From Acidobacteriota bacterium (GTDB lineage: Bacteria > Acidobacteriota > UBA890 > WLXD01), in NCBI GenBank assembly GCA_965248695.1, contig CBDFKD010000002.1, forward strand, positions 5,088,001-5,152,000: a stretch of DNA of 64,000 nucleotides, written 5' to 3'. The translations under genes and the position numbers were made by a program. Positions within the stretch are counted from its first letter, which is position 1. Every line of letters starts with the position of its first letter. The notes beneath the pieces were generated by a model. It had not been told where the DNA came from, did not search any database, and worked only from the letters and a program-made list of their open reading frames with translations. Positions 19,028 through 45,837 of the stretch are shown here, piece after piece.

Positions 19028-19253
19028 TTGACCAACATCCTCGGACGGGAGAAACGTCGACTGAACCGTCCGCAGGGTCCGTGGGCGTCAAACATCTGTC
19101 AAGAGCGCGACCCCGCCGTTTCGATGCTGTCGGCGATGGGGCGAAATGACCCGCGCCAGATTGCCTCGTATTTGGGCAGCGGGTACTCTCTGGCGCGATG
19201 CGAAGCGCTTGCCGTACCCGGCGAGCCTCCCTACAGCCCTCACCCTCTTTCGC

Positions 19254-20492: not shown

Positions 20493-20514
20493 TGCGTCGG
20501 AGCTGGAGGACCCT

Positions 20515-23711: not shown

Positions 23712-24415
23712 GCGCCGCCCGTCCGCGGCTACTGACACCTCTATATGGCGTTGCCGTGCGTCTCGGGGCACAGTTCGCCGATGGCGGGGCTGGCTGGCAG
23801 ATTCCCGCGAGCTACGGCGATTCGGCGGCCGAGGCCTCCGCAGTGCGAGACCGACTCGGGATCGCCGACGTCTCGGCGGATGGCAACCTGCGAATCGAGG
23901 GGGCCGCTGCCGAGGCGGTGCTGGGAACAGCATATGGACTGCGGGTGCCGGAAATCGGCGAGAGCGCCGCGCTCGGCGAGGGGCGCTGCTATCGCGTACG
24001 CACGGACCTGTTCGTGGTCACGACCCCGCCGGGCGCCGAAGGGGCGGTGGACGATGCGATCGGCTCAGCCGCGCAGGCGGCGGATCAACGGGTCACGGTG
24101 ACCGTGATGACCCATGGACAGGCCAACATCCGTATAATCGGTGCGCGCGTGACCGAGTTGATGAGCAAGCTGTGCGGCCTGGACTTCGGCCCCGCAGCAT
24201 TCCCGAACGGAGCGGTCAGGCGGACGAGCTTTGCCAAGACGGGGCAGCTGATCATTCGTCGCGACCTGGACCGACTCCCCGCCTTTCTGGTGATCGGGGC
24301 TCGGTCAGCTGCACCCTACGTTTGGGAGACGATCATGGAGGCCGGCGAGGAATATGGCATCACGCCAATCGGGCGGGATGCGCTGGCCGCCATCGCTTCA
24401 GACAGCATCGCTTAA
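23708..24415 (+). CDS. soxG: Sarcosine oxidase / Mgd gamma subunit (GcvT-like)
   Basis: LCGLDF..AFP, RSAAPYVW motifs; GTGA overlap with soxA. Confidence 0.8.
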   Translation: MSAARPRLLTPLYGVAVRLGAQFADGGAGWQIPASYGDSAAEASAVRDRLGIADVSADGNLRIEGAAAEAVLGTAYGLRVPEIGESAALGEGRCYRVRTDLFVVTTPPGAEGAVDDAIGSAAQAADQRVTVTVMTHGQANIRIIGARVTELMSKLCGLDFGPAAFPNGAVRRTSFAKTGQLIIRRDLDRLPAFLVIGARSAAPYVWETIMEAGEEYGITPIGRDALAAIASDSIA

Positions 24416-24435: not shown

Positions 24436-25899
24436 ATGACTGATCTTGAAACTTATGTTCGTGCCGACGGCCGCGACGAGTTGGTCAGGGAAGTTCGCAA
24501 GCAGATCGACGCGCTGGGGATCGAGTACATCTACTACCAGTTCGTATCCGTAACCGGGCGCATCGTCGGCAAGGGCGCCCCCGCGGATCACTGGGAGAAG
24601 TTCGCCGAGGATGGCTTCCAGCTGGTCTATGGCTCGACCGCGAACCTGTTCACCGATCGGCACGGCAACTACATTGGCTACGGGCCCGAATCGTCCGAGC
24701 TGGTTGGCATCCCAGATCCGGAGACCTTCGTGCAGTTGCCCTGGGAGAAGCGTATAGCGCGCGTCTTCTGTACTTGCTTCCGCAACCGCGAGGAACCAGA
24801 GAACGCCGGGGCCTTCCTGAGCTCGGACTGCCGCGGCAACGTGCGGCGTATCCACCGGCAATTCACCGCCGACCATGGGCTCGAGATGCGCGTGGGTACC
24901 GAGCCCGAGATGATGTGGTTGAAGAAGGGCGCCGACGGGCAGCCCGATGGCGGCGTCACTCGACCATTCTGCTACCACATCGATCAGTTCGAGACCCTAC
25001 GTCCGATCGTCCTGAAGGTGGTGGAATACAGCCGCGCGATGGGACTGGATATTATCCAGGGCGACCACGAAGACGCCCCTGGCCAGCTCGAGCTCAACTT
25101 CACCTACGACGATGCGCTCCGTACTTGTGATCGACTGACCACCTATCGGCAGATCTGCGCCGAGGTGGCCAAGCAGAACAACATGATCGCCTGCTTCATG
25201 TCGAAGCCGTTCATGGGCGTCTCGGCATCAGGTTGCCACCACAACGTCTCCCTGTGGCGCGGTGGCGAGAACACGGTCAAGGCGCTTGGACACGATCCGT
25301 TGCCCGGCATGGAGGACAGCTTCGTCCATCGTAAGGGCGGCGAGAACGTCTTCTTGCCCGATGCGGGGCAGCGTGTTCCATCCGAGCTCGGACTGCAGTG
25401 CCTGGGCGGACTCAAGGAGCATTTGCCAGCGTTGACGGCGATCGGCTGCTCGACAGTGAACTCGTACCGCCGCCTCTGTGAGACTGGCTTCTGGGCACCG
25501 ATCTTTGCCGACTGGGGATTCCAGAACCGTACCTGTGGCTTGCGGGTCTCGTCGCCCGATCGGTTCGAGTATCGCGCCGTCGACTCCATGGTGAATCCGT
25601 ACTTGATGGCGGCCGGAATCCTGAAGGCGTTCGACGACGGTATTCGGACCAAGGCAGACCCCGGTCCGCCGGAGGAGCGCAACATCTACGACGCCATCGA
25701 AGAAGGCAAGGAGGTGGTGAAGCTGCCCTTGTCGCTCGGTGCCGCCCTGGATACGCTTGCCGCGGACGAGGTCGTCAAGTCGGCGATGCCCGACGAGATG
25801 TACCGGGTCTTCATGCACTACAAGACCGATGAGTGGGAGCGTTTCCTCGCTCAAACCACTGAATGGGACCTCGAAAACTACTTGGACTGCTTGCCATAG
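24436..25899 (+). CDS. Glutamine synthetase-family ligase (putative gamma-glutamyl-amine synthetase)
   Basis: GTEPE, DHEDAPGQLE, FMSKPF..SASGCHHN, NSYRRL, NRT, FEYR motifs; directly upstream of mgs-like genes. Confidence 0.88.
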   Translation: MTDLETYVRADGRDELVREVRKQIDALGIEYIYYQFVSVTGRIVGKGAPADHWEKFAEDGFQLVYGSTANLFTDRHGNYIGYGPESSELVGIPDPETFVQLPWEKRIARVFCTCFRNREEPENAGAFLSSDCRGNVRRIHRQFTADHGLEMRVGTEPEMMWLKKGADGQPDGGVTRPFCYHIDQFETLRPIVLKVVEYSRAMGLDIIQGDHEDAPGQLELNFTYDDALRTCDRLTTYRQICAEVAKQNNMIACFMSKPFMGVSASGCHHNVSLWRGGENTVKALGHDPLPGMEDSFVHRKGGENVFLPDAGQRVPSELGLQCLGGLKEHLPALTAIGCSTVNSYRRLCETGFWAPIFADWGFQNRTCGLRVSSPDRFEYRAVDSMVNPYLMAAGILKAFDDGIRTKADPGPPEERNIYDAIEEGKEVVKLPLSLGAALDTLAADEVVKSAMPDEMYRVFMHYKTDEWERFLAQTTEWDLENYLDCLP

Positions 25900-25921
25900 C
25901 TGTTGGCGGAGATAGCTAACG

Positions 25922-26869
25922 ATGTGTGGAATCGCCGGGATCATTCACCGCAACAAGACGGGCAACGTCGGCGCCGAGATGACCGGCATGCTCCAGGCCA
26001 TGAAGCATCGTGGTCCGGACTCGACCGGGTTCGCGTTTTACGGTGTTCCGAACGAAGACGAGTTGCTGCTGCGCTTCAAGGTAGCGGAGCATGAGGATCT
26101 TGAGACGGGTTTCGAGATCCACGATGCGATCAAGCGACGCCGCGCCGAGGTGGACGAGCGCATCGAATCGATGGGCGGCGATATTCAGGTGGCCGAGGCG
26201 CCGACCGAGTATGCCTTCCTCTACCGCCTCCGTTTTGATCCCAAGCTCGAGAGCCTGGCGCGTCTGGCCGACTATATCGAGGACGTCGACGGTGCCGAGG
26301 TGCTGTCGATTGGCAACGCGCTGGAGGTCGTCAAGGATCTGGGCGACGCCACCGAGGTGAGCAACCAATACGAGATGGGCAAGTTCGTTGGCACGCACGC
26401 CATCGGCCACACGCGCATGGCCACCGAGTCCGACGTCGATATCTGCTCGGCGCATCCGTACTGGGCCTACCCGGTCAGCGATGTCTCGGTGGTGCACAAC
26501 GGCCAGCTGACCAACTACTGGAGCAAGCGGCGCGAGCTGGAGCGCAGCGGCCACCGATTTCTCTCCGACTGTGATTCAGAGCTCATTGCCGTGTATGTCG
26601 CCGAGCTGACCGAGCGTGGGAAGTCGCTAGAGGAAGCGATGCGTCAGTCGGTGGACGAGCTCGACGGCGTATTCAGCTATCTGGTTGCCACCTCGGACGG
26701 GCTCGGTCTGGCCAAGGACACCATGGCCGCCAAGCCCATGGTGCTGTACGAAGGCGACGACTGCATCGTCATGGCCTCGGAGGAAGTGGCGATCCGGACC
26801 GTGTTCCAGGAGGAGATCGACACCTTTGATCCGTACGCCGGGGATGTACGTGTCTGGAGCACCAACTGA
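25922..26869 (+). CDS. mgsA: Class II glutamine amidotransferase, N-methylglutamate synthase subunit A-like (GlxB)
   Basis: MCGIAG Ntn Cys, HRGPDS, GHTRMATES, HNGQLTN, DSE. Confidence 0.78.
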   Translation: MCGIAGIIHRNKTGNVGAEMTGMLQAMKHRGPDSTGFAFYGVPNEDELLLRFKVAEHEDLETGFEIHDAIKRRRAEVDERIESMGGDIQVAEAPTEYAFLYRLRFDPKLESLARLADYIEDVDGAEVLSIGNALEVVKDLGDATEVSNQYEMGKFVGTHAIGHTRMATESDVDICSAHPYWAYPVSDVSVVHNGQLTNYWSKRRELERSGHRFLSDCDSELIAVYVAELTERGKSLEEAMRQSVDELDGVFSYLVATSDGLGLAKDTMAAKPMVLYEGDDCIVMASEEVAIRTVFQEEIDTFDPYAGDVRVWSTN

Positions 26870-27681
26870 TGACTGATGTCCACGCGGAGCCACTGAAGGG
26901 CCGTTCCTACAAGACCATGTTCCGGGCCGAGGAAGGAGAAAACCTCGTCTATCCGGACAGCGTCGAGGTCGACTTCGATAGCCGTGCTGAATTCGATGCT
27001 GCCGAGATGGACACCAGCTCGATCAACAAGCGCATCCGTGAGCTCATGGGCGAGGGCCACGGTCACATCGTGGTCCTCAATCCGGGCGCCAAGCATTCCC
27101 TCGGCGTGGGTATCCTCAATCGGCTGCAGCTGGATTTCGATGGATCACTGGGCTACTTCGGGATCGGACTCAACGATGGTCCGAACGTACGCATCCGGGG
27201 ACGAGTCGGCTGGTCATGTGGAGAGAACATGATGGCCGGTACCATCGTCATCGAAAAGAACGCCGGCTCGTGTTTCGGCGCCGCGATCCGCGGCGGCGAT
27301 CTCGTCTGCAGGGGAGACGTCGGAGCGCGAACCGGGATCAACCAGAAGGGTGGAACCATCATCGTAGGTGGCCGAACCGGAATGCTCTCGGGGTTCATGA
27401 TGCAGCGCGGCCGCATGATCTTTCTCGGCGACGCTGGCGAGAGCCTCGGTGACTCGATGTATGACGGCACCATCTTCGTCGGCGGCGAGATCGCGTCGTT
27501 GGGAATCGATGCGGTACCCGGAGAGATGACCGATGTCGAGGCGCATTGGTTGCAGCGCAAGCTCGATCTCTACGGCCTCAAAGCACCCAACGGCGTCGAG
27601 AAGCTGCAGAAGATCGTTGCCGGCAAACAGCTTTGGAACTACGACAACCTCGAACCTACTGAAAAGAAGATCGTCCTGTGA
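26869..27681 (+). CDS. mgsB: GXGXG beta-helix protein, NMG synthase subunit B-like (GlxC)
   Basis: ENMMAG, GARTGI..KGG, GFMMQRG, LGDSMYDG. Confidence 0.78.
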   Translation: MTDVHAEPLKGRSYKTMFRAEEGENLVYPDSVEVDFDSRAEFDAAEMDTSSINKRIRELMGEGHGHIVVLNPGAKHSLGVGILNRLQLDFDGSLGYFGIGLNDGPNVRIRGRVGWSCGENMMAGTIVIEKNAGSCFGAAIRGGDLVCRGDVGARTGINQKGGTIIVGGRTGMLSGFMMQRGRMIFLGDAGESLGDSMYDGTIFVGGEIASLGIDAVPGEMTDVEAHWLQRKLDLYGLKAPNGVEKLQKIVAGKQLWNYDNLEPTEKKIVL

Positions 27682-29021
27682 CTGATAACGGCAAGCGCAA
27701 CAAGGACGTCCTGGGTGAGAACTTTCTGTTCAAGCCCAGCGTTATCGACGACATCCACATCAAAGCGGATCTCGGCCGCTACCGCATGCGCGGCATGGCG
27801 CTGTTCAAGACCATCCCTACCTGGGATGACCTGACGTTCCTGCCCGGCACGCTGACGCGCTTCGTGATCGAAGGCTATCGCGAGAAGTGTCTGACGAAGA
27901 CGGTTCTCGGCCCGAAGGCCAAGCGCCCGCTGGAGCTCGATATCCCGATCTACATCACCGGCATGAGCTTCGGGGCGCTTTCGTACGAGGCCAAGGTAGC
28001 GCTGGCACGCGGTGCGACGATGGCTGGAACCGCCACTTGCTCGGGGGAGGGCGGCATGCTGCCGGACGAGCGCCGTTACTCGTCGAAGTGGCTCTACCAG
28101 TGCATCCAGTCGCGCTACGGGTTCAACCCGCATCATCTTCGACTCGCTGACGGCTGCGAGTTCTTCATCGGACAGGGCTGCAAGGTGGGGCTTGGCGGGC
28201 ACCTCATGGGGCAGAAGGTCACCGATCAGGTGGCCGAGATGCGCAATCTGCCGGCCGGAATCGACCAGCGCTCACCGGCGAGACATCCGGACTGGCTGGG
28301 ACCGGACGATCTGGCTCTGAAGATCGACGAGATCCGCGAGGCGACCAACGGGGAGATCCCCATCCAGCTCAAGCTCGGATCGGCGCGTGTCTACGACGAT
28401 GTTCGCATGGCCGCCAAGACGGGTCCGGATAGCATCTACCTCGACGGTATGGAGGGCTCGACGGGAGCCGGTCCGCATCTCGCCACCGAAGAGACGGGAG
28501 TGCCGGGAATCGCTGCCATCCGGCAGGCGCGCCACGCGCTCGATGACGTGGGCAAGACCGGGGAGATATCGCTCGTCTACGCCGGCGGTATCCGCAACGG
28601 CGCCGACGTCGCCAAGGCCCTGGCGCTGGGTGCCGACGCCATCGCGATTGGCACAGCCGCTATGGTGGCGCTCAACTGCAACCGCGACATTCCAGAGGCC
28701 GACTTTGAGGGAACCATCGGCGTGCCGGCGGGTTACTGCTATCACTGCCACACCGGTCTGTGCCCGGTCGGTGTCGCCACTCAGGATCCGGAGCTGCGCA
28801 AGCGGCTGGATCCCGACGAGGCGGCGATCCGTGTCTACAACTTCCTGCATACGCTGGCCATCGAGTGCCAGATGATGGCGCGCGCCTGCGGCAAGACGAA
28901 CGTGCACTCGCTGGAGCCCGAAGACCTGGCGGCGTTGACCTCCGAGGCGTCGGCCATGGCCGAGGTGCCGCTCGCCGGCACCCGATACACCGTCGGCCAT
29001 CCGGAAATGACCCGGTTCTGA
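27678..29021 (+). CDS. mgsC: FMN-binding glutamate synthase-family protein, NMG synthase subunit C-like (GlxD)
   Basis: GMSFGALS, RSPARHPDWLGPDDL, GGIRNGADVAKALALGAD, CYHCHTGLCPVGVATQDP. Confidence 0.85.
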   Translation: MTDNGKRNKDVLGENFLFKPSVIDDIHIKADLGRYRMRGMALFKTIPTWDDLTFLPGTLTRFVIEGYREKCLTKTVLGPKAKRPLELDIPIYITGMSFGALSYEAKVALARGATMAGTATCSGEGGMLPDERRYSSKWLYQCIQSRYGFNPHHLRLADGCEFFIGQGCKVGLGGHLMGQKVTDQVAEMRNLPAGIDQRSPARHPDWLGPDDLALKIDEIREATNGEIPIQLKLGSARVYDDVRMAAKTGPDSIYLDGMEGSTGAGPHLATEETGVPGIAAIRQARHALDDVGKTGEISLVYAGGIRNGADVAKALALGADAIAIGTAAMVALNCNRDIPEADFEGTIGVPAGYCYHCHTGLCPVGVATQDPELRKRLDPDEAAIRVYNFLHTLAIECQMMARACGKTNVHSLEPEDLAALTSEASAMAEVPLAGTRYTVGHPEMTRF

Positions 29022-29059
29022 CAGACCCGATCCTGAGCGACCTGATTCCGAGAGACGCT

Positions 29060-29470
29060 GTGAACGACGAAGCCTCGAAGCCAGACGAAGAGCAGGACGT
29101 CGACTACTACCTCAAGTCGAGCGGGCTGGATACCGACCGCGAGGTCGAGATCGGCCAGCACATCGGCTACCGGTACGACGTCAACCTCGTTCCCGACTAC
29201 TCGCTGCTCACTCCGTTGCTGAAGAAGTACATCGAGCTGATGGGCTGGGACGATCTCAACTGGATGGAGGACGTCCATATGGGCTACGAGGAAGGCCGTT
29301 CGGCGGTCTTCGATCGCAACATCAACGGTTGGGTTGTCGTGCCAGACGACATGGAACTGCCTGACTCGCAACAAGAGCGAGATATGGTAGCGCGCGAGTT
29401 ACTGTTGAAGTTCCAGATGTCGCCGCAGCATCCGCTCTACGACCTGGGCGAGAGACACAAGAAGTTCTGA
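29060..29470 (+). CDS. Uncharacterised acidic 136-aa protein
   Basis: Host-like codon usage; fills the gap between mgsC and the ACAD-fold gene; no family recognised; start GTG 29060 is tentative. Confidence 0.75.
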   Translation: MNDEASKPDEEQDVDYYLKSSGLDTDREVEIGQHIGYRYDVNLVPDYSLLTPLLKKYIELMGWDDLNWMEDVHMGYEEGRSAVFDRNINGWVVVPDDMELPDSQQERDMVARELLLKFQMSPQHPLYDLGERHKKF

Positions 29471-29529
29471 CGTCCAGGGTGGTCGCGCGGCGGCCAGCAT
29501 CGGTCGACGTTAACGAATGCGAGGCTGAC

Positions 29530-30927
29530 TTGAGCGACACCAAGAAGTGGGGCACAGAAGAGTTCTGGGGGCTGGCATATGATTGGGATCCGCAGTGGAT
29601 CCTGACGCCGGAACAGCAAGGGCTCCAGGCGGCCTTGATCGACCTGTGCCAGACCTCCATGCGTGACAACGCCGTGGAAAGCGATCGCGAGCTGATCTTC
29701 CCGCGCAAGAACTTCGAAGCGCTTGCCTCGCTCGGCCTGCTGGGCCTTATGGTGCCGAAGGACCTCGGCGGCCGCGGTGAGAACCACACGTGCTTGGCGA
29801 TGGTGGTCGAGACGATCGCGCGGTACGGCTGCCCGAGCACGGCGATGTGCTACACGATGCACATCGGCGCGATGGCGGCGGCGATGCTCCGGGCTCACGG
29901 CAGCGAGACCATCCAGAACCTGATGCGGCGGCTCGATGACGAGGTGCTGGTCGGCACGCTGTCGTATTCCGATCCCGAGACCGGTTCTCACTTCTGGTAT
30001 CCGTTCTCGTCCAGCGCCGAGCGTGTTGACGGCGGCTGGAAGGTCAACAAGAAGGCATCCTGGACGACCTCGGGCGGGTTCGCTGACTGGTACATCATCC
30101 AGACCACCAGCCCGGACTTCGATGGCGACTACTCGGATCTGTCCTGCTTCCTGATCATGGCCGACGAGATCAAAGCAGATCCGTCCACTTGGGACGGCCT
30201 CGGTTTGCGCGGCAACCAATCAGGACCCCTGTACGTGGAGGACAAGACGATCCCCGAGGACCGCCTCATCGGGCCGATCGGCGATGGTGCGAGCTCGAAC
30301 GACGAGGCGGTCGACCCCTTCTTCCTGCTGTGCTCCTCCTCGTGCTGGAACGGCATCTCGATGGGTCTGATCGATATCACCAAGGGGCACACGACCAAGA
30401 AGAAGCATGTCGACGTGGGAATGCGAGTGTGCGATTACCCGACGATTCAGGACTACGTCGGCGAAGCAGTGATCGACACGAACACGTCGCGCGCCTTCGT
30501 CTATCAGCTGGCCTCGGCGATGGACAAGAAGACCGATGACTGCGACTGGTCTCTGCACGAGGATCTCTCGGTATTGCCGCGGTCGACCGTCTTGCACTGG
30601 ATGTGGCAGGTGAAGTTCACCGCTGCCAAGAACGTTGCCCACGTGGCCGACAAGATGCTCCACGCCTGTGGTGGCACGGGTTACAAGCCGGCGCTCGGTA
30701 TCGAGCGATACCTTCGCGACGGCAAGGCGGGTTGGGTCATGGGGCCGACCAACGAGGTGTTGCGCCAGTTTGTCGGCAAGGCGGTGCTCCTGGGCTTCGA
30801 CTCGCTGGACTACTGGAACCAGTCGATCAACGAGCGGGCGCTCCACAACGAGATCAAGAAGATGGACGCCGCGGCCAAGAGCGCGCTCGCCAAGCAGCTG
30901 CTCGCGGAGGCCGAGGAATCGCAGTGA
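29530..30927 (+). CDS. Acyl-CoA dehydrogenase-fold flavoprotein (atypical)
   Basis: GLLGLMVPKDLGG, SDPETGS, K.W.TSG, GLGLRGNQSG, GGTGY..IERYLRD motifs; TTG start after GAGG. Confidence 0.88.
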   Translation: MSDTKKWGTEEFWGLAYDWDPQWILTPEQQGLQAALIDLCQTSMRDNAVESDRELIFPRKNFEALASLGLLGLMVPKDLGGRGENHTCLAMVVETIARYGCPSTAMCYTMHIGAMAAAMLRAHGSETIQNLMRRLDDEVLVGTLSYSDPETGSHFWYPFSSSAERVDGGWKVNKKASWTTSGGFADWYIIQTTSPDFDGDYSDLSCFLIMADEIKADPSTWDGLGLRGNQSGPLYVEDKTIPEDRLIGPIGDGASSNDEAVDPFFLLCSSSCWNGISMGLIDITKGHTTKKKHVDVGMRVCDYPTIQDYVGEAVIDTNTSRAFVYQLASAMDKKTDDCDWSLHEDLSVLPRSTVLHWMWQVKFTAAKNVAHVADKMLHACGGTGYKPALGIERYLRDGKAGWVMGPTNEVLRQFVGKAVLLGFDSLDYWNQSINERALHNEIKKMDAAAKSALAKQLLAEAEESQ

Positions 30928-33269
30928 TCCAGTCGCAGCTCGATGGGCCGCGATGGGCCGCGGGGGGCCTACTTCACCAGATCCCCGGTAGGGAGCGCTA
31001 TCGAGTCGCCGGCGGCGGCGCCACGGTCGTGGCACTGGCGGCCGGCGATCGCATCGACATCACCGACGTCGAGGGCGGCCAGCGCTGTGAGCTGGCGGTG
31101 TTCTCTCCGACCGGCGGCGAGGACAGCGCAGCACTCAACGCGGCTCCCGACAGCCAGCTGGGCGTGCTGGGTATCGCTCAGGCAAGCCGCGAGGGCGATG
31201 CGGGCGCCGCGGTGGCGTCGCTGCTGGCGCACGGTATCGATCCGCGCGGAGCTCCGGCGCTACAGCTGTTTCGGGGCGACGGGCCCGCTGGCGCACAGGA
31301 GTCGTTCACCGCCGAGCGCGACGTCGTCTGTATCGTCGGCGCCCCCGGCGGTCCCATGCGTGTCGATGCGCAGGATCCACCCACCGATCTCGAGATGATC
31401 ATCCAACGTGCCCGGGTGACCGAGACCCCGGAGACCCCACTACCCGCCCCACTCGGCGATATGCGGATCGACCTGCGGGTGGAGCGTGCCGGGGCGCGCG
31501 CCTACGAGGTGAAGGCCGGCGAGTACATTCAGGTGATCGACGTTGCTGGTCAACAGTGCTCGGATTTCCTCGCATTCCGGTCCGATGCCCTCCAAGACGG
31601 GGTGGAGAAAGGGCTGGACCCCACTGCCACCCGCACTTTCATGGGTGCGGCGTATCCCGGGCCCGGCCTGTACTCGAAATTCTTCGACCCGGATCTACAG
31701 GCGCTTGTCGAAGTCGTTCGCGATACGGTCGGCCGCCACGACACCTTCGGCCTGGCATGTACGGCGAAATACTACGAGGACATGGGGTACTTCGGTCACG
31801 CCAACTGTTCCGACAACTTCAACGCCGAGCTGGATCCGTTCACCATCGCGCCGCGCAAGGGTTGGCCGGCGATCAACTTCTTCTACAATACGCGCATCGA
31901 CGACGACAACGTCCTTTACCTCGATGAGCCGTGGTCGCGACCCGGCGACTACGTCTTGCTTCGCGCCCTGACCGATCTTGTTTGTTTGACTTCGGCCTGT
32001 CCCGACGACATCGACGCTGCCAATGCCTGGAATCCCACCGAGGTTCACGTTCGTGTGTATCCGGCCACGAGCTCGTTCTCGATGGGGATGGCACATCGCA
32101 TGACCGCTGACTCCGAGCCGAAGCTGACGCGCGAGACCGGGTTCCACCCTCGAACTTCGGCGCTGACTCGTAAGTTCACCGACTACAGCGGCTACTGGCT
32201 GGCGACCGAGTTCACCGAGCACGGCCCGGTCCAGGAGTACTACGCCTGCCGCGAGCGCGCCGTGGTGATGGATCTGTCGGCGCTGCGCAAGTTCGAGGTC
32301 CTGGGTCCGGATGCCGAGGCGCTGATGCAGGCGACCCTGACACGTAACGTGCGTCGCGTCGCTGTTGGCCAGGTGTCGTATACCTCGATGTGCAACGAGA
32401 CCGGTGGCCTGCTGGATGACGGTACGCTGTTCCGGCTAGGCGCGGACAACTTCCGCTGGATCGGAGGTAATGCTACGGATGGCCTCTGGTTGCGTGAGCA
32501 GGCGGAGCAACGTCGGCTCAACGTACGGGTGAAGTCGTCGTCCGATCAGCTGCACAACATCGCGCTTCAGGGCCCGCGCAGCCGTGACATCCTGCGCGAT
32601 GTCGTCTGGACATCTCCGACACAGCCCAGCATCGACGAGCTCAAATGGTTCCGCTTCACCATTGGACGCGTGGCGGCCGCTGACGGCACGCCGCTGCTGG
32701 TATCGCGGACCGGCTACACGGGCGAGCTGGGGTACGAGATCTGGTGCCATCCGGAGGATGCGGTCGCAGTCTGGGATGCGATCTGGGAAGCCGGTGAGCA
32801 GCACGAGCTCACCCCGCTTGGCCTGGACGCGCTCGATATCCTGCGTATCGAGTCGGGACTGATCTTCCCGGGCTACGAGTACGACGACCAGGTGGATCCG
32901 TTCGAGGCGGGAATCGGATTTACCGTCGACCTCGACAACACAGACGACGATTTCGTCGGGCGCTCCGCCCTCGCCGAGCGCAAGGCCCATCCGCAGAGGC
33001 AGCTGGTGGGGCTGGAGCTCGACGGCAACGAAACGGGGGGGCACGGCGATGGTGTCTACGCCGGCCGCAGTCAGATCGGGGTGGTCACCAGCGGTACACG
33101 GTCACCCATCCTGAGGAAGAACATCGCCCTTTGCCGATTGGCCAAAGAACATGGCGCCATCGGCACGAAGTTGGAAGTCGGCAAGCTCGACGGGCATCAG
33201 AAGCGCATCGCAGCAACCGTCGTGAGGTTTCCGTTCTATGACCCTGAGAAAGAACGCCCTCGCAGTTGA
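30924..33269 (+). CDS. tdm: Trimethylamine N-oxide demethylase (DUF1989 + GcvT fusion)
   Basis: G.QCSDF, RHDTFGLAC-x15-C with His at +13 and a third Cys 64 residues later (TSAC), matching my recollection of Tdm metal-ligand spacing; C-terminal aminomethyltransferase domain. Confidence 0.88.
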   Translation: MIQSQLDGPRWAAGGLLHQIPGRERYRVAGGGATVVALAAGDRIDITDVEGGQRCELAVFSPTGGEDSAALNAAPDSQLGVLGIAQASREGDAGAAVASLLAHGIDPRGAPALQLFRGDGPAGAQESFTAERDVVCIVGAPGGPMRVDAQDPPTDLEMIIQRARVTETPETPLPAPLGDMRIDLRVERAGARAYEVKAGEYIQVIDVAGQQCSDFLAFRSDALQDGVEKGLDPTATRTFMGAAYPGPGLYSKFFDPDLQALVEVVRDTVGRHDTFGLACTAKYYEDMGYFGHANCSDNFNAELDPFTIAPRKGWPAINFFYNTRIDDDNVLYLDEPWSRPGDYVLLRALTDLVCLTSACPDDIDAANAWNPTEVHVRVYPATSSFSMGMAHRMTADSEPKLTRETGFHPRTSALTRKFTDYSGYWLATEFTEHGPVQEYYACRERAVVMDLSALRKFEVLGPDAEALMQATLTRNVRRVAVGQVSYTSMCNETGGLLDDGTLFRLGADNFRWIGGNATDGLWLREQAEQRRLNVRVKSSSDQLHNIALQGPRSRDILRDVVWTSPTQPSIDELKWFRFTIGRVAAADGTPLLVSRTGYTGELGYEIWCHPEDAVAVWDAIWEAGEQHELTPLGLDALDILRIESGLIFPGYEYDDQVDPFEAGIGFTVDLDNTDDDFVGRSALAERKAHPQRQLVGLELDGNETGGHGDGVYAGRSQIGVVTSGTRSPILRKNIALCRLAKEHGAIGTKLEVGKLDGHQKRIAATVVRFPFYDPEKERPRS

Positions 33270-33277
33270 GGAAATCG

Positions 33278-34618
33278 ATGAGCTCCGTTCCTGAAGCAAG
33301 CAAGTACGTCGTCATCGGTGCCGGCATCCATGGTCTGAGCACCGCCTACCACCTAGCGCTCGAGCTCGAGGCCCGAGGGCACGGGAGCGGCGCCGACATC
33401 ATCGTCATCGACAAGGAAGGCGTTGGTGCGGGTGCGTCCGGGATTGCTTGCGGCGTGATCCGCAACAACTATTTCCAGCCTGCCATGCGCGAGCTCATGG
33501 CGCACAGCGTCGAGGTGTGGGATAGCGACCCGGAGGCATACAGCTACCACCCGGTCGGCTACATGCAGATCAGCCCGGCAGCGATGGAGTCCGACGTCGG
33601 CCAGATCTATGAGCAGCAGAAGGCGATCGGCTACGAGTCAGAGTTCGTCGTCGGCGCGGCTGAAGCCGACAGGTATATGAAGGGGCTGTTCCACGACTGG
33701 AAGGCGGCCGGGATCACATCAGTATTGCACGAGAAGAAGGGCGGCTACGCCAACAACATGGCGTCGATGCGCGGCCTCGCCACCAAGGCCGAAGGGGCTG
33801 GCGTCACGATCCACGCCGGCGTGACGGTGACCGGGTTCCAGTACACGGATACCGGAATCAGCGCCGTGGAAACCGACCAGGGGACGATCCGCACCGACTA
33901 CGTCGTGGTGGGTGTGGGCCCCTGGGTGAAGCACATCTGGGAGATGCTCGACCTGCCGAAGACCATTACGGTGAACGACAACGGCACTCTGCACGAAGAC
34001 GTCCGGATGTGGCGCTACTGGTGTCTGCAAGAGGGCACGCTGGGGGTCGACCCGGAACTGCAACGGACGAACGCCGGCGAGATGCCTCCGGTTGTGCATC
34101 TGGATACCGACGCGCCGTTGTACTCGGATGCCGACGGGTCGCTGATCACCGAAGAGATGTGGGGTATCTACTACAAGCCCGACTTCTCGTTCGGCGGTGT
34201 GCAGGGAGGCGCCATGCCCTACAAGGTCGACAAGGACCCCGACGACGTGGCGGTCGATCCGTACGGACCGAAGTCGCCGGATTTCATCGTCGGCGAGGAC
34301 TTCGCCAACATGTGGTGCTCGGCGCTTGCCTTTTGCCAGGAGCGCTTTGTCGGCAAATCGGGACTGTTCCGTGGCGAGGAGCCCTCCGGCGGGATCGGCT
34401 CGTTCACCGCCGATAGCTTCCCGGTTTTCGACGTGTTCCGGGGGAACTGCTATTTCGTTGCCGACTCCAACCACGGCTACAAGATGCTCGGGGTGGGTAA
34501 GCTGGTGGCTGCCGAGATTGCCGGCGATCGGAGCGGGCTGCTGGAGCCGTTTCGCTTCTCGCGTTATGCCGAGGGAAAGCTGCATCCGGTGTCCAACAGC
34601 CCGTATCCCTGGAGCTAG
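33278..34618 (+). CDS. FAD-dependent oxidoreductase, DAO/sarcosine-oxidase family
   Basis: VVIGAGIHGLSTAYHL, GASGIACGVIRNNY, DSNHGYKM. Confidence 0.85.
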   Translation: MSSVPEASKYVVIGAGIHGLSTAYHLALELEARGHGSGADIIVIDKEGVGAGASGIACGVIRNNYFQPAMRELMAHSVEVWDSDPEAYSYHPVGYMQISPAAMESDVGQIYEQQKAIGYESEFVVGAAEADRYMKGLFHDWKAAGITSVLHEKKGGYANNMASMRGLATKAEGAGVTIHAGVTVTGFQYTDTGISAVETDQGTIRTDYVVVGVGPWVKHIWEMLDLPKTITVNDNGTLHEDVRMWRYWCLQEGTLGVDPELQRTNAGEMPPVVHLDTDAPLYSDADGSLITEEMWGIYYKPDFSFGGVQGGAMPYKVDKDPDDVAVDPYGPKSPDFIVGEDFANMWCSALAFCQERFVGKSGLFRGEEPSGGIGSFTADSFPVFDVFRGNCYFVADSNHGYKMLGVGKLVAAEIAGDRSGLLEPFRFSRYAEGKLHPVSNSPYPWS

Positions 34619-34713: not shown

Positions 34714-36105
34714 ATGGAAAACGAGCTCAGCGCGCTGACCGTCATCTTCACGGAGTTCTACTACTGGGTCTGCATCGTGCTCATGTTCCTCATCCACGTC
34801 GGCTTCTGCCTGTACGAGGTCGGCGTGTCGCGTCGCAAGAACATGATGCACACGCTGATGAAGAACGCGATGGTGATTCCGCTGATCACGGTGGCGTTCT
34901 TCTTTGTCGGCTGGTGGATCTACTTCGCCTTTCAGAATGGCCCCGGTATTGCCGGCGGGCTCATCCCGGCGCCGTTCGCGCTGCCGTGGAGCGAGCTCAT
35001 GGGCACCCACATGGGCGGCCAGCCGGCGCAGGCGGCGTTGACCGCCGGCGACACAGCGACCTGGGCGCGTCTGAACGGGGTGTTCTTTGGGGCGTTTCTG
35101 CTGTTTTCCTGGACCTGCGCCTCGATCCTGTCCGGGGCGGTCATCGAGCGCATTCGCTCGAGTGCCTTCTGGCTGTTCGCCATCATGCTGGGCTCGATCA
35201 CCTGGGTCATCGACGCCTCCTGGGGCTGGTCGGGCGAGGGCTGGATGGTGCGCCTGCTGGGCTACCACGACGCCTACGCATCGGGCGTGATCCACGCGAT
35301 CAGCGGCGGATCGGCACTCGCTGTTCTGTATCACCTGGGGCCGCGCATCGGTCGGTTCCGGTCTGACGGCTCGGCGCGAGCGTTCCCGCCACAGAACACC
35401 TGGCTGGTGATCATCGGCCTGTTCATGATCTACACCGGCTTCTGGGGCTTCTACGCTGCCTGCAATATCCCGATTATCGACATCGATCCGGACTCCGCCC
35501 GCACGTTCTTTGCGGCGACGACGATCTACCTCACGCCGACCACGCTGAGCGCCATCACCTTCAACTTCCTGCTGTCGCTCGCGGGCGGTCTCATGGCCGG
35601 CTACTACGTCTCCAAGGGCGATCCTTACTGGACATTCTCCGGTGGCCTCGCCGGCATCATCACTGCTTCCGCCGGCAACGACCTCTATCATCCGTTGCAG
35701 GCCATGTTGATCGGGGCTTTCGGGGTGGTGTGCCTGTACCGGTTGCACCACTGGGTGGAGAAGAAGTTCAAGATCGACGATGCGGTCGGCGCGGTGGCGG
35801 TACATGGTTACGCAGGTGTCCTCGGCGTGGTGATCGCCGGGTTCGTGCTCTGGGGTTATCCGAGCTCGCCGAACCCGGAGTTCGCCAGCATCACCCCCTG
35901 GGGCCAGATCGCCGGCGCCTTCATCATGTTCTTCGTGCTGGGGTTCGCGCCGTGCTTCGTGCTCGGGGCGGTGCTGAAGAAACTGGACATGCTACGTATC
36001 CCGCACGCCATCGAGCTCGCGGGTCTGGATCATCAGATGCTGGCTGACGAGACGGCGGCGTCCTTCGACCTGGTGGTCGAAGAGCTCCGCGTCGCCGGGA
36101 GTTGA
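34714..36105 (+). CDS. amt: Ammonium/methylammonium transporter (Amt family)
   Basis: About 11 TM; GF.LYE.G, SGAVIER, HDAYASGVIH and DDAVGAVAVHG twin-His segments. Confidence 0.9.
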   Translation: MENELSALTVIFTEFYYWVCIVLMFLIHVGFCLYEVGVSRRKNMMHTLMKNAMVIPLITVAFFFVGWWIYFAFQNGPGIAGGLIPAPFALPWSELMGTHMGGQPAQAALTAGDTATWARLNGVFFGAFLLFSWTCASILSGAVIERIRSSAFWLFAIMLGSITWVIDASWGWSGEGWMVRLLGYHDAYASGVIHAISGGSALAVLYHLGPRIGRFRSDGSARAFPPQNTWLVIIGLFMIYTGFWGFYAACNIPIIDIDPDSARTFFAATTIYLTPTTLSAITFNFLLSLAGGLMAGYYVSKGDPYWTFSGGLAGIITASAGNDLYHPLQAMLIGAFGVVCLYRLHHWVEKKFKIDDAVGAVAVHGYAGVLGVVIAGFVLWGYPSSPNPEFASITPWGQIAGAFIMFFVLGFAPCFVLGAVLKKLDMLRIPHAIELAGLDHQMLADETAASFDLVVEELRVAGS

Positions 36106-36918: not shown

Positions 36919-37048
36919 TGCATTGACGGCTGCTGCTGCTCCAGGACGTTGATTAATGTCGACGACACGGTATTGTCGCTCAACGCCAGTGCGGTTGCGA
37001 TCGGGTGGAGGCCCGCTAGGTACCAAGAGACTTTGATCGGTGGAGACC

Positions 37049-38383
37049 ATGACAGGCAAAGACGCGGCAGGCTTCTTCGAGAAGAACGGGGTGAAGTTCG
37101 TCCTCGCGCAGTTCGTCGACATCCACGGCGTGGCTAAGACGAAGGCGGTTCCGGCAGCGCACTATGAGGACATTCTCAGCGACGGGGCCGGGTTCGCCGG
37201 CTTCGCCGTATGGGGCCTCGGGCAGGAGCCGCACGATCCGGATTTCATGGCGGTTGGTGATCCAGACACCCTGAGCCTGGTGCCGTGGCAAGAGGGCTAC
37301 GCGCGGGTCGTGTGCGTCGGCAACGTGAACGGCGCGCCGTGGCCGCTGGATACGCGTCACATCGCCGGGCAGCAACTGGCCCGCATGGCCGAGCGGGGTT
37401 GGACGTTCAACACCGGCATCGAGCCGGAGTTCATGCTCCTGCAGCGCGACGACAGCGGCTCCCTCTCGCCGGCCGATCCCACCGATCGACTCGACAAGCC
37501 CTGCTACGACTACAAGGGCCTGTCGCGCAGCCGGATCTTCATCGAGAAGCTCGTGGGCGCACTGATGTCGGTGGGTTTCGACGTCTACCAGATCGACCAC
37601 GAGGACGGCAACGGTCAGTTCGAGATCAACTACACCTACACCGACGCGATGACCTCTGCGGATCGGTACGTATTCTTCCGCATGGCCGCCGGCGAGATCG
37701 CCCGCGAGCTCGGCGTTATCTGCTCTTTCATGCCCAAGCCGGCTACGCGGCGCACCGGTAGCGGCACCCACTTCCACATGTCGATCGACGATGCCGATGG
37801 CACGCCGCTGTTCGGTGACGAGTCGGATGGGCGCGGCCTCGGACTGTCAAAGCTCGCCTACCATTTCCTGGCCGGCCTGTTGGAGCACGCCCCGGCGCTA
37901 GCGGCGCTCTGTGCGCCCTCGGTCAACTCCTACAAGCGCCTGGTTGTCGGCAACACTCGGTCGGGAGCGACCTGGGCGCCGGCCTACATCTCATACGGCG
38001 ACAACAATCGCTCCAGTATGGTGCGCGTACCGCACGGGCGGCTCGAGCTACGGCTTCCCGACGGTAGCTGCAACCCATATGTGGCGACCGCTGCCATCGT
38101 TGCCGCTGGGCTGGACGGAGTCGATCGCCAGCTCGATCCCGGCGAGCCGCAGAATATCAACCACTACACGACCCCGATCGACGAGCTCAAGAAGCTCGGG
38201 GTCGGCATCCTGCCGCAGAGCCTGGGCGCCGCACTGGACGCCCTGGAGGCCGACGCGATGTTTCGCGAGCAGCTAGGCGAGAGGTTCATCGCCGAGTTCC
38301 TCGAGGTCAAGGAGACGGAGTGGATCGAGTATCAGCGCCACGTCTCCGACTGGGAGGTGGATCGCTACCTCGAGTACTACTAG
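37049..38383 (+). CDS. gmaS: Type III glutamate-ammonia ligase / gamma-glutamylmethylamide synthetase
   Basis: [55 protein letters not shown]. Confidence 0.85.
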
Positions 38384-45831: not shown

Positions 45832-45837
45832 GAGGTG

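What the first reader, a model, noticed from the sequence alone, without database searches (positions are those of the whole stretch)
29060..30927. Unknown small protein plus atypical ACAD-fold flavoprotein, translationally coupled to tdm: candidate new TMA/DMA-oxidising module
Seen: a 136-aa acidic protein with no recognisable family and an acyl-CoA-dehydrogenase-fold gene lie between mgsC and tdm, and the ACAD stop overlaps the tdm start (GTGA). The segment that carries the catalytic Glu in MCAD-type enzymes (IYEGT) reads WVMGPT here, and the N-terminus is unusually Trp-rich. Established: Tdm consumes TMAO, normally made by the flavin monooxygenase Tmm, and releases DMA, normally removed by DmmABC(D); group D flavin monooxygenases use the ACAD fold. 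Neither tmm nor dmm is in this window. Inference: this pair may be an undescribed TMA N-oxygenase or an amine/N-methyl dehydrogenase filling one of those gaps, with the small protein as partner subunit.
Basis: partly seen in the sequence, partly recalled or inferred. Interest (0 to 1): 0.82.

Follow-up and report, generated by a model that had tools for sequence, protein, structure and literature searches.

The report
Two-component trimethylamine oxygenase replacing Tmm
The acyl-CoA-dehydrogenase-like gene in front of the TMAO demethylase gene is most likely the oxygenase half of an undescribed, widespread flavin enzyme that turns trimethylamine into TMAO where the usual enzyme (Tmm) is missing, while the small acidic protein belongs to the neighbouring methylamine-assimilation genes rather than to it.

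Summary
A 136-aa acidic protein with no family match (29060-29470) and an ACAD-fold gene (true start probably 29530, end 30927) lie between mgsC and tdm. The ACAD stop overlaps the tdm GTG, and the catalytic Glu is absent.

The ACAD-fold protein belongs to a tight family (71-97% identical across at least 6 phyla). It sits beside tdm in 56 of 80 loci and beside a flavin-reductase gene in 48 of 80. Its nearest divergent relatives are fused to an NAD(P)H reductase module. This is the pattern of a two-component (group D) flavin monooxygenase.

Canonical Tmm is present in 1 of 27 genomes carrying this gene, against 10 of 16 tdm-positive genomes lacking it. In four Xanthobacter/Aquabacter loci, ACAD plus reductase sit beside tdm and dmmDABC (three also have a tmoP-like permease). 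No tmm is in any of the four loci, and none in the two genomes searched.

My best reading is a non-orthologous TMA N-oxygenase (about 0.6).

The small protein is not its partner. It follows mgsC, occurs in genomes without the ACAD, and appears fused to the mgsC domain. Its module is mutually exclusive with DmmA, which hints at a Dmm-independent DMA route.

Nothing is tested biochemically, and I found no paper describing it.

The parts
29530..30927 (+). ACAD-fold protein, 465 aa. The longest ORF starts at GTG 29479. Proposed oxygenase component of a two-component (group D) flavin monooxygenase, probably a TMA N-oxygenase.
   Evidence: Pfam ACAD domains. Catalytic Glu absent. AF2 model pLDDT 90.7 with ACAD fold, TM about 0.75 to solved ACADs and to 5z8t 'flavin-containing monooxygenase'. 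tdm in 56/80 and a flavin reductase in 48/80 related loci. Reductase-fused relatives. Anticorrelation with Tmm.
29060..29470 (+). 136-aa acidic protein with no known family. Proposed accessory protein of the variant N-methylglutamate-synthase module (goes with mgsC), not of the ACAD.
   Evidence: No Pfam/NCBIfam match. 67 invariant columns in 20 diverse homologues. All 25 loci with it have mgsC, within 200 nt in 21. Present in ACAD-negative genomes. 16 of 33 longer homologues carry PF01645 and none an ACAD domain. No fold match.
30924..33269 (+). tdm, TMAO demethylase (DUF1989 + GcvT). Its start GTG overlaps the ACAD stop (GTGA).
   Evidence: NF053776 1218.7 bits, cut-off 1100. Pfam DUF1989, GCV_T, GCV_T_C. 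Sequence at 30924-30927.
27678..29021 (+). mgsC-like FMN glutamate-synthase-domain protein, variant type (81-99% identical across phyla).
   Evidence: NCBIfam glutamate synthase large subunit region. Loci comparison. Alignment A3, mean column identity 88%.
24436..27681 (+). GS-like protein of 487 aa (24436-25899), mgsA-like amidotransferase (25922-26869) and mgsB-like GXGXG protein (26869-27681). With mgsC and the small protein they form a conserved five-gene unit.
   Evidence: TIGR03105 only 298.5 bits in two stretches, cut-off 469.6. The same gene order is seen in loci and in ACAD-negative alphaproteobacteria.
33266..34618 (+). DAO-family FAD oxidoreductase, 450 aa. It travels with the GS-like/mgsABC/small unit. 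Function open: N-methylglutamate or another N-methyl oxidase/dehydrogenase.
   Evidence: PF01266 116 bits. Weak soxB-like match. Co-location.
34714..36105 (+). Amt-family transporter, 76-79% identical in relatives from Acidobacteriota, Latescibacterota and Gemmatimonadota beside tdm (97% in L001, 41-44% in cyanobacterial loci). Candidate importer of methylated amines.
   Evidence: TIGR00836 175 bits, below cut-off. Loci.
37040..38383 (+). Type III glutamine-synthetase family protein, canonical GmaS type.
   Evidence: TIGR03105 645.2 bits, cut-off 469.6.
19146..24415 (+). Sarcosine-oxidase-like beta, alpha and gamma subunit genes (N-methylglutamate dehydrogenase-like, mgd).
   Evidence: TIGR01373 486 bits, TIGR01372 922 bits, TIGR01375 57.6 bits, all below their cut-offs.

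Best explanation
The ACAD-fold gene (29530-30927) most likely encodes the oxygenase component of a two-component, group D flavin-dependent monooxygenase.

Proposed mechanism:
- A separate NAD(P)H:flavin reductase supplies reduced flavin.
- The ACAD-fold protein forms a flavin C4a-hydroperoxide.
- That intermediate transfers oxygen to the nitrogen of trimethylamine, giving TMAO.
- TMAO is the substrate of Tdm, whose gene is translationally coupled downstream.

The enzyme would be a non-orthologous replacement of the class B enzyme Tmm. In this genome the reductase is not in the operon. The only homologue is an orphan Flavin_Reduct gene at G000:C2:1560081-1560584.

The 136-aa acidic protein is not part of this enzyme. 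It belongs to the conserved unit GS-like(487 aa)-mgsA-mgsB-mgsC-small(-DAO oxidoreductase), a variant of the gamma-glutamylmethylamide/N-methylglutamate module, probably as an MgsC-binding accessory subunit.

Shown here: the fold, the loss of the catalytic base, the gene linkages, the fusions and the co-occurrence statistics. Inferred: the flavin chemistry, TMA as substrate, and physical binding of the small protein to MgsC.
For: (1) Linkage to tdm.
- 56 of 80 related loci from at least 6 phyla have tdm within the fetched flanks, and 40 of the 46 loci with full 10-kb flanks.
- tdm lies directly downstream on the same strand in 21 loci.
- In an even sample of 301 alphaproteobacterial genomes, 7 of 8 genomes with the gene are among the 23 tdm-positive ones (Fisher p=4.5e-8).

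(2) Reductase partner.
- A Flavin_Reduct gene (PF01613, 137 bits) is present in 48 of 80 loci. It is most similar to the reductase components of the HpaH, HsaAB, StyAB and FerA systems.
- Positions: 21 directly upstream, 5 directly downstream and 14 directly after tdm, all on the same strand; 8 elsewhere.

(3) Fusions. The nearest divergent relatives carry a C-terminal FAD_binding_6 + NAD_binding_1 reductase module: P0278 (53% identical, 770 aa), P0285, and P0288 (37%, 882 aa).

(4) No catalytic Glu at either ACAD position. The solved ACAD-type 'flavin-containing monooxygenase' 5z8t/5gj7 is among the best sequence and fold matches and also lacks it.

(5) Substitution for Tmm.
- Tmm (NF058570 over cut-off) is in 1 of 27 genomes with the gene. 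These are the own genome, G001-G005, six of the sample, and G306-G320.
- Tmm is in 10 of 16 tdm-positive genomes without it (Fisher p=3.8e-5).
- L065, L069, L076 and L077 (Aquabacter, Xanthobacter) read dmmD | ACAD-reductase-tdm-(tmoP-like)-dmmA-dmmC-dmmB, with no tmm in any of these four loci and none in G002 or G003, the genomes of L069 and L065.
- In L059 the ACAD/reductase pair sits between tmoP and tdm, where tmm sits in G296, G033 and G185.

(6) Independence from Dmm. DmmA is in 2 of 12 genomes with the gene and in 3 of 16 tdm-positive genomes without it.

(7) Chemical precedent. Group D ACAD-fold two-component enzymes oxidise DMS to DMSO, a reaction Tmm also performs (PMC13352529, passages read).

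(8) The small protein goes with mgsC.
- All 25 loci with it have mgsC and vice versa, and it is within 200 nt of mgsC in 21 of 25.
- In L038 and L059 it is 5-9 kb from the ACAD on the other strand.
- It follows mgsC in 5 of 5 inspected ACAD-negative islands.
- It occurs in 28 of 301 sampled genomes against 8 with the ACAD.
- 16 of 33 longer homologues carry the mgsC domain PF01645 and none an ACAD domain.
Against: - No biochemical or genetic test exists, and I found no RNA data.
- By sequence the protein is closer to true ACADs and to the uncharacterised Rv1679/FadE16 family (210.8 bits) than to known group D oxygenases: SfnB 64, HsaA 62, DszC 48 bits.
- 32 of 80 loci, including the window's nearest relatives L001-L003, have no reductase gene in the flanks, and the window has none either.
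- G001 (Virgifigura) has the ACAD, a reductase and two Tmm genes, one of them next to tdm, so the two are not strictly exclusive.
- Lack of Tmm could also mean these organisms use imported TMAO only. Five loci carry a TMAO-permease-like gene. Because most tdm-positive genomes lack Dmm (20 of the 23 in the sample have no DmmA match over cut-off), a DMA-oxidising role cannot be excluded outside Xanthobacter and Aquabacter.
- The statistics are not corrected for shared ancestry, genome completeness was not reported for the sampled genomes, and the comparison group is alphaproteobacterial only.
- In 14 of 25 loci the small gene is also within 200 nt of the ACAD. In L018 and L045 it is next to the ACAD and separated from mgsC by an amt gene.
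- The mgsC-small fusions are single-member clusters and may be gene-calling read-throughs.
Confidence: 0.6

Rival explanations
1. The ACAD-fold protein with its reductase is a dimethylamine monooxygenase or N-demethylase. It would remove the DMA made by Tdm and so replace DmmDABC rather than Tmm.
For: The own genome and most tdm-positive genomes lack DmmA: 0 in G000, G004 and G005, and only 3 of 23 tdm-positive sampled genomes have it, so a DMA step is missing. Tight linkage to tdm fits an enzyme acting on the Tdm product as well as one acting on its substrate. Lidbury et al. 2017 (PMC5520151, abstract and passages read) describe the missing Dmm as a bottleneck.
Against: In 4 of 80 loci the gene sits in one operon with a complete dmmDABC, and no tmm is in those loci or in the two genomes searched. 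That would make it redundant there. DmmA frequency is the same with and without the gene (2/12 against 3/16), whereas Tmm is depleted (1/27 against 10/16). C-H hydroxylation of an N-methyl group is, as far as I recall, not typical of ACAD-fold flavin hydroperoxide enzymes, while heteroatom oxygenation is (for DMS).
Confidence: 0.13
2. It is a two-component flavin oxygenase tied to Tdm but acting on another small substrate. Examples would be DMS or another sulfur or nitrogen compound, N-hydroxylation of methylamines, or oxidation of a larger tertiary amine that yields TMAO-like N-oxides.
For: The same fold, reductase and fusion evidence applies. Group D relatives act on DMS/DMSO. A 61%-identical paralogue occurs in G045 without tdm and as a second copy in G294. 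This shows the family can serve other contexts.
Against: The anticorrelation with Tmm and the positional replacement of tmm are not predicted by this reading. 40 of 46 full-flank loci have tdm.
Confidence: 0.15
3. It is a genuine acyl-CoA or acyl-carrier dehydrogenase (or desulfinase-like CoA enzyme) that happens to lie next to tdm.
For: The best solved-structure and NCBIfam matches are ACADs and CoA-dependent relatives.
Against: It has no catalytic Glu at either known position. Among the neighbour families present in 8 or more loci that I annotated, none was a CoA ligase, hydratase or ETF. Not every neighbour family was annotated. The tdm and reductase linkage and the reductase fusions also argue against it.
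Confidence: 0.03
4. One reading: the small acidic protein is a subunit of the ACAD-fold enzyme.
For: The two genes are adjacent in this window (59-nt gap to the TTG start) and within 200 nt on the same strand in 14 of 25 loci. In L018 and L045 the small gene stays with the ACAD while an amt gene separates it from mgsC.
Against: 55 of 80 ACAD loci have no small gene in the flanks. Xanthobacter and Aquabacter genomes (G002, G003) have the ACAD but gave no match to the small protein. 10 of 16 tdm-positive genomes without the ACAD have the small protein. Fusions are to the mgsC domain only.
Confidence: 0.08

Closest known systems
Group D two-component flavin monooxygenases with ACAD fold (DszC, SfnB, HsaA, nitrososynthases such as DnmZ/KijD3, and Dms1-3 of Acinetobacter baylyi)
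   Same: ACAD fold without the catalytic base. A separate small NAD(P)H:flavin reductase gene lies beside it in most loci. Heteroatom oxygenation of small substrates is established for the group (DMS to DMSO). PDB chains of DnmZ and KijD3-like proteins are hit at E about 1e-10 to 1e-12.
   Different: NCBIfam scores to these families are only 40-64 bits, lower than to true ACADs. The protein is about 80 aa longer, with a Trp-rich N-terminal extension, an insertion around residues 330-350 and a C-terminal helical tail. It forms an isolated clade: at 50% clustering the next full-length relatives are 53, 48, 45 and 37% identical, then 36% or less. No member has a TMA substrate on record in the searches I ran.
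Tmm, bacterial trimethylamine monooxygenase (class B flavin-containing monooxygenase, NF058570)
   Same: The proposed reaction (TMA + O2 + reduced flavin to TMAO), the position next to tdm and tmoP, and the role in the pathway.
   Different: There is no homology. Tmm is a single-component FAD/NADPH Rossmann-type enzyme. This one is an ACAD-fold oxygenase needing a separate reductase. They are nearly mutually exclusive in genomes (1 of 27).
Rv1679/FadE16 family (NF049984)
   Same: It is the best-scoring NCBIfam model for the window protein (210.8 bits over residues 60-436). Separately, the 25-36%-identical relatives in alignment A1, whose family I did not determine, share the '(V/I)M(G/A)P' segment in place of 'YEG'.
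   Different: The score is far below the 600-bit cut-off. Relatives are about 380-420 aa without the extensions. The family's function is, as far as I know, uncharacterised.
DmmDABC dimethylamine monooxygenase
   Same: It is part of the same pathway and sometimes the same operon.
   Different: No subunit is homologous. DmmA, the DUF3445 protein and the PDR/VanB reductase are absent from this genome.
Canonical GmaS-MgsABC module (for example Rhizobium johnstonii pRL11)
   Same: The small protein's neighbours are homologues of mgsA, mgsB and mgsC plus a GS-like ligase.
   Different: The canonical cluster has a type III GS (TIGR03105, 693.6 bits) and no annotated ORF in the 80 nt between mgsC and glnT. 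The variant has a 487-aa GS-like protein (298.5 bits), the small protein after mgsC and often a DAO oxidoreductase.

Membership tests
Acyl-CoA dehydrogenase (functional alpha,beta-dehydrogenase) | Three-domain ACAD fold | tested here: met
   Pfam N 62.2 bits, C 41.2 bits, M 30.9 bits (cut-off 33.3). AF2 pLDDT 90.7. Foldseek TM 0.71-0.76 to solved ACADs.
Acyl-CoA dehydrogenase (functional alpha,beta-dehydrogenase) | Catalytic glutamate at the MCAD-type (YEG) or IVD/LCAD-type (helix G) position | tested here: not met
   'IYEGT' aligns with 'VMGPT'. The helix G position is Phe. This holds in all 13 close family members aligned. The numbering of the two sites is from recall.
Acyl-CoA dehydrogenase (functional alpha,beta-dehydrogenase) | CoA-thioester metabolism or ETF genes in the neighbourhood | tested here: inconclusive
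   None was seen among the recurrent neighbour families that I annotated, but not all neighbour families were annotated.
Group D two-component flavin monooxygenase | ACAD-fold oxygenase lacking the dehydrogenase base | tested here: met
Group D two-component flavin monooxygenase | Dedicated NAD(P)H:flavin reductase encoded with it | tested here: met
   A PF01613 gene is in 48 of 80 loci, 40 of them in operon-like position. Relatives are fused to an FNR-type reductase. It is not met in this window itself; an orphan homologue lies elsewhere in the genome.
Group D two-component flavin monooxygenase | O2- and reduced-flavin-dependent oxygenation | not testable with these tools
   Needs an enzyme assay.
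Tmm (NF058570, class B FMO) | Homology to the FMO family | tested here: not met
   There is no FMO domain in the protein. It is proposed to work like Tmm, not to be one.
Rv1679/FadE16 family (NF049984) | Score over the curated cut-off of 600 bits | tested here: not met
   210.8 bits.
TMAO demethylase Tdm (neighbour gene) | NF053776 over cut-off; DUF1989 + GcvT architecture | tested here: met
   1218.7 bits against 1100; Pfam domains.
Small protein: any described family | Match to Pfam, NCBIfam, a PDB fold or an ESM Atlas cluster | tested here: not met
   No hits. The model has only pLDDT 68.8.

The most novel reading that the evidence does not exclude
The window carries a complete TMA-to-methylamine route built from two undescribed parts.

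(a) An ACAD-fold/flavin-reductase TMA N-oxygenase that replaces Tmm.

(b) The variant GS-like/MgsABC/small-protein/DAO-oxidoreductase module, which replaces DmmDABC by taking DMA, not only methylamine, into the glutamyl route. One conceivable path runs through gamma-glutamyl-dimethylamide and N,N-dimethylglutamate, with the DAO enzyme removing one methyl group.

Part (b) would explain why most tdm-positive bacteria, including small SAR11-like genomes in the sample, lack Dmm. That is the 'DMA bottleneck' of Lidbury et al. 2017.

Basis for (b): among tdm-positive genomes, the small protein and DmmA never co-occur. None of the 5 DmmA-positive genomes has it, against 18 of 21 DmmA-negative ones. 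Three remaining genomes have neither.
Probability: 0.15. Interest if true: 0.92.

Novelty: new variant of a known kind. Interest (0 to 1): 0.78.

Why it matters
TMA, TMAO and DMA are major nitrogen and carbon currencies in soil and sea and are precursors of climate-active aerosols. Surveys of who oxidises TMA count tmm.

If this ACAD-fold/reductase pair is a second TMA monooxygenase, tmm-based surveys miss a whole guild. The gene is present in Acidobacteriota, Latescibacterota, Gemmatimonadota, Verrucomicrobiota, Cyanobacteriota and many Alphaproteobacteria. In the sample it accounts for 6 of the 12 tdm-positive alphaproteobacterial genomes without tmm.

It would also add a new substrate class and a new clade to the group D flavin monooxygenases. 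A two-component TMA-to-TMAO catalyst could be useful for odour removal.

The side observation that the small-protein module excludes Dmm makes the long-standing question of how Dmm-less bacteria deal with DMA directly testable.

Tried and rejected
- **Wrong Dmm marker.** I first used DUF3483 (PF11982) as a marker for DmmA, from memory. The annotated Rhizobium pRL11 region showed that Dmm consists of a DmmA-family protein (NF041259), a DUF3445 protein, a PDR/VanB reductase and a GcvT-like protein. The DUF3483 results say nothing about Dmm and were replaced.
- **Wrong family guess.** Guessing NF053775 as a Dmm model was wrong; it is an unrelated family.
- **Accession from memory.** An accession recalled for Paracoccus pAMI6 was not in the collection.
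- **Complex prediction.** Complex prediction of MgsC with the small protein gave no verdict (score 0.05). I do not count it for or against binding.
- **Small protein fold.** The model has pLDDT 68.8. The most conserved stretch, residues 30-43, is below 50, and there is no Foldseek match at E<=0.001. The ESM Atlas gave no usable hit.
- **Expression.** No RNA holder was listed for the stretch, and read laying was not used.
- **Literature.** Searches for an ACAD-type or two-component TMA monooxygenase found nothing relevant. A search for PDB codes 5Z8T/5GJ7 found no describing paper. The library lacks most subscription journals, and supplements were closed.
- **Other candidates set aside.** An OYE + Pyr_redox_2 protein at 45835-47805 was considered as a TMA/DMA dehydrogenase, but its best match is a mycofactocin-type FadH/OYE family, below cut-off. 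I did not follow it up.
Full report
**What is in the window**

The + strand carries one long cluster:
- sarcosine-oxidase-like beta, alpha and gamma genes (19146-24415, N-methylglutamate-dehydrogenase-like);
- a 487-aa glutamine-synthetase-like gene (24436-25899);
- mgsA-, mgsB- and mgsC-like genes (25922-29021);
- the 136-aa gene (29060-29470);
- the ACAD-fold gene (to 30927);
- tdm (30924-33269);
- a DAO-family FAD oxidoreductase (33266-34618);
- an Amt-family transporter (34714-36105);
- after one gene on the other strand, a type III glutamine synthetase of the GmaS type (37040-38383).

Tdm is secure: NF053776 scores 1218.7 bits against a cut-off of 1100.

**The observation**

- The small protein has pI 4.41 and no Pfam or NCBIfam match at E<=1.
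- The ACAD-fold ORF matches the three ACAD domains.
- Homologues and the database gene call for this genome are about 465 aa. I therefore place the start at TTG 29530, which has GAGG upstream, not at GTG 29479.
- The bases at 30924-30927 read GTGA, so the ACAD stop overlaps an in-frame GTG of tdm. That this GTG is the real tdm start is inferred from the family-model alignment.
- In alignments to solved ACADs, 'IYEGT' corresponds to 'VMGPT', and the helix G position used by IVD-type enzymes is Phe. The same holds in all 13 close family members aligned.
- Four of the first 30 residues are Trp.

**The ACAD-fold protein is a tight, widespread family tied to tdm**
- The 120 best database relatives are 75-100% identical and 457-511 aa. 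Sources label them as Acidobacteria, Latescibacteria, Gammaproteobacteria, Alphaproteobacteria and Udaeobacter.
- A scan of one genome per species found 263 encoding stretches. The best 80 loci (71-97% identical) come from Acidobacteriota, Latescibacterota, Gemmatimonadota, Alphaproteobacteria, Verrucomicrobiota and Cyanobacteriota, including Obscuribacterales.
- At 50% clustering the family collapses to one representative. The next full-length relatives are 53, 48, 45 and 37% identical, and everything else is 36% or less.
- tdm lies within the fetched flanks in 56 of 80 loci (40 of the 46 with full flanks), within 3 kb in 45, and directly downstream on the same strand in 21.
- In an evenly drawn sample of 301 alphaproteobacterial genomes, 23 have tdm and 8 have the ACAD family. 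Seven of the 8 are tdm-positive (p=4.5e-8). The exception, G045, carries a 61%-identical paralogue.

**It looks like the oxygenase of a two-component flavin monooxygenase**

Unbiased clustering of all ORFs in the 80 loci found a recurrent 170-aa neighbour. It is a Flavin_Reduct protein (PF01613, 137 bits), most similar to the reductase components of the HpaH, HsaAB, StyAB and FerA systems.

It is present in 48 of 80 loci (31 of the 46 with full flanks). Positions:
- 21 directly upstream of the ACAD gene, same strand;
- 5 directly downstream, same strand;
- 14 directly after tdm, same strand;
- 8 elsewhere.

Independently, three divergent relatives carry a C-terminal FAD_binding_6 + NAD_binding_1 reductase module: P0278 (53%, 770 aa), P0285 and P0288 (37%, 882 aa).

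With the missing catalytic base, this points to a reductase-fed oxygenase and away from an ETF-coupled dehydrogenase.
- The AF2 model is confident (pLDDT 90.7) and has the ACAD fold.
- Its neighbours in the PDB are ACADs. They also include 5z8t, deposited as a flavin-containing monooxygenase, which lacks the Glu as well.
- By sequence the protein is nearer to ACADs and to the uncharacterised Rv1679/FadE16 family (210.8 bits, cut-off 600) than to known group D oxygenases (40-64 bits). It is therefore a separate lineage.

**Which substrate: TMA or DMA?**

Three results favour TMA.

1. Tmm is nearly absent from genomes with this gene.
- The own genome has none.
- Of G001-G005, only G001 has it.
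- None of the six other ACAD-positive, tdm-positive genomes of the sample has it.
- None of 15 further genomes from six phyla reaches the cut-off; the best is 91 bits against 675.
- That makes 1 of 27, against 10 of 16 tdm-positive genomes without the gene (p=3.8e-5).

2. The gene coexists with Dmm in one operon.
- After I corrected my marker for Dmm using the annotated Rhizobium johnstonii pRL11 region, the loci L065, L069, L076 and L077 read dmmD | ACAD-reductase-tdm-(tmoP-like)-dmmA-dmmC-dmmB.
- No tmm is in those four loci, and none in G002 or G003, the genomes of L069 and L065.
- Every canonical gene of the pathway is there except tmm, and the ACAD/reductase pair stands in its place.
- In L059 the pair sits between tmoP and tdm, where tmm sits in G296, G033 and G185.

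3. DmmA is equally rare with and without the gene: 2 of 12 against 3 of 16.

Chemistry agrees. Heteroatom oxygenation by a flavin hydroperoxide is what ACAD-fold group D enzymes do. A 2026 study shows such enzymes oxidising DMS to DMSO, a reaction Tmm also performs (PMC13352529, passages read).

Against this reading:
- G001 has both enzymes, with tmm next to tdm.
- Tmm-less organisms might live on imported TMAO.
- Most tdm-positive genomes lack Dmm, so a DMA role cannot be excluded outside the Xanthobacter group.
- The counts are not corrected for shared ancestry.

**The reductase in this genome**

No reductase gene is in the window. The genome has one Flavin_Reduct homologue (47% identical to the Xanthobacter one, PF01613 138 bits) at C2:1560081-1560584. 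Its neighbours are unrelated. That it serves the ACAD-fold protein is inference.

**The small protein**

It is extraordinarily conserved: 67 invariant columns in 20 homologues of 68-88% identity. At least 7997 database relatives exist; none of the 120 listed has a Pfam domain or an informative name.

Its constant neighbour is mgsC, not the ACAD.
- All 25 loci with it have mgsC and vice versa, and it is within 200 nt of mgsC in 21.
- In L038 and L059 it stays with mgsC while the ACAD is 5-9 kb away on the other strand.
- 55 of 80 ACAD loci have no copy in the flanks.
- In five tdm-positive, ACAD-negative alphaproteobacteria, the unit GS-like-mgsA-mgsB-mgsC-small is intact next to tdm. Four of them also have the DAO gene in the unit and tmm within the fetched flanks.
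- In the 301-genome sample it occurs in 28 genomes: 17 of the 23 tdm-positive ones and 11 others.
- Xanthobacter and Aquabacter have the ACAD but gave no match to the small protein.
- Of 33 longer homologues, 16 carry the mgsC domain PF01645, one carries a DAO domain, and none an ACAD domain. These are mostly single-member clusters and could be read-through gene calls.

Two loci, L018 and L045, are exceptions. There the small gene abuts the ACAD and an amt gene separates it from mgsC.

The canonical Rhizobium mgsABC-glnT cluster has no annotated ORF in the 80 nt between mgsC and glnT. The small protein therefore marks a variant module. Its fold is unresolved (pLDDT 68.8, no PDB match).

**A side result worth following**

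Among tdm-positive genomes, the small protein and DmmA never co-occur.
- In the sample, 17 have the small protein only, 3 have DmmA only, 3 have neither, and 0 have both.
- Adding the own genome, G002 and G003, none of the 5 DmmA-positive genomes has the small protein, against 18 of 21 DmmA-negative ones (p=8.5e-4).

Two explanations are open. Either two lineages of the N-methylglutamate module simply travel with or without Dmm, or the variant module handles DMA itself. The second would bear on the 'DMA bottleneck' described for SAR11 and others (PMC5520151, abstract and passages read). I rate it low but testable.

**Novelty**

Six searches of the held library found nothing that links an ACAD-fold or two-component enzyme to TMA oxidation or to tdm. 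Subscription journals and supplements were not searchable.

I file the ACAD-fold protein as a new variant of a known kind: group D flavin monooxygenases, with a new clade and a new proposed substrate. It works like Tmm without being one. The small protein has no known kind.

**Verdict**
- Observation confirmed.
- Interpretation partly supported: the TMA N-oxygenase idea yes, the small protein as partner no.
- Confidence that the ACAD-fold protein is a reductase-dependent oxygenase functionally tied to Tdm: about 0.8.
- Confidence that its substrate is TMA and that the small protein belongs to the MgsC module: about 0.6.

Noticed in passing
window 24436-29470 and 33266-34618; loci L084-L093; genomes of the class sample: The unit GS-like(487 aa)-mgsA-mgsB-mgsC-small, often with the DAO oxidoreductase, is mutually exclusive with DmmA among tdm-positive genomes. 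None of the 5 DmmA-positive genomes has the small protein, against 18 of 21 DmmA-negative ones. It may be an alternative way of dealing with DMA.
   Followed up: partly
window 34714-36105: The Amt-family transporter next to tdm is 76-79% identical in relatives from Acidobacteriota, Latescibacterota and Gemmatimonadota (97% in L001, 41-44% in cyanobacterial loci), in 20 of 80 loci. It scores below the ammonium-transporter cut-offs. It may be a methylated-amine importer. No TMAO-permease homologue was found in the own genome by tblastn.
   Followed up: partly
window 36376-37122 (-): A 248-aa ORF without any Pfam or NCBIfam match. It has 33-51% identical (80% in the near-identical L001) counterparts next to the small gene or tmoP in 9 of the 80 loci and in G060, G296, G033, G142 and G185. 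It may be a regulator of the island.
   Followed up: no
L095:1382-1846 (G075): In G075, a flavin reductase 45% identical to the ACAD-linked one lies divergently next to tdm. No ACAD-family gene was found in that genome at E<=1e-60, and tmm is present.
   Followed up: no
P0278, P0285, P0288 (database proteins): Single-polypeptide versions exist, with the ACAD-fold domain fused to an FNR-type FAD/NAD reductase. They would be convenient for expression tests.
   Followed up: partly
G045 and G294 (class sample): A 61%-identical paralogue of the ACAD family occurs without tdm (G045) and as a second copy (G294). Its context was not examined.
   Followed up: no
L008, L013, L016-L027 (Latescibacterota, Gemmatimonadota): Here mgsC-small-ACAD-tdm-reductase-amt-FTHFS-gmaS form one string. 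The variant mgsA lies elsewhere in the genome, for example G005 at C1:4856153. Upstream are a conserved methyltransferase and a 284-aa protein with no Pfam match.
   Followed up: partly
window 43013-44473 and 45835-47805: A betaine-aldehyde dehydrogenase (NF009725, 828.6 bits, over cut-off) and an OYE + Pyr_redox_2 flavoprotein of the FadH/TMADH-like architecture (TIGR03997, 604.9 bits, below cut-off) lie 10-15 kb downstream. This suggests wider quaternary-amine metabolism in the region.
   Followed up: no
window 38420-40100: Aconitase X large and swivel-domain genes follow the type III GS gene. Counterparts at 79-83% identity are in the closest locus, L001.
   Followed up: no
L030, L034, L040, L049: A serine hydroxymethyltransferase-like gene lies near the ACAD gene in 4 loci, between it and tdm in L030 and L034. 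Formate-tetrahydrofolate ligase follows amt in 14 loci. This fits folate-bound C1 release by Tdm.
   Followed up: no
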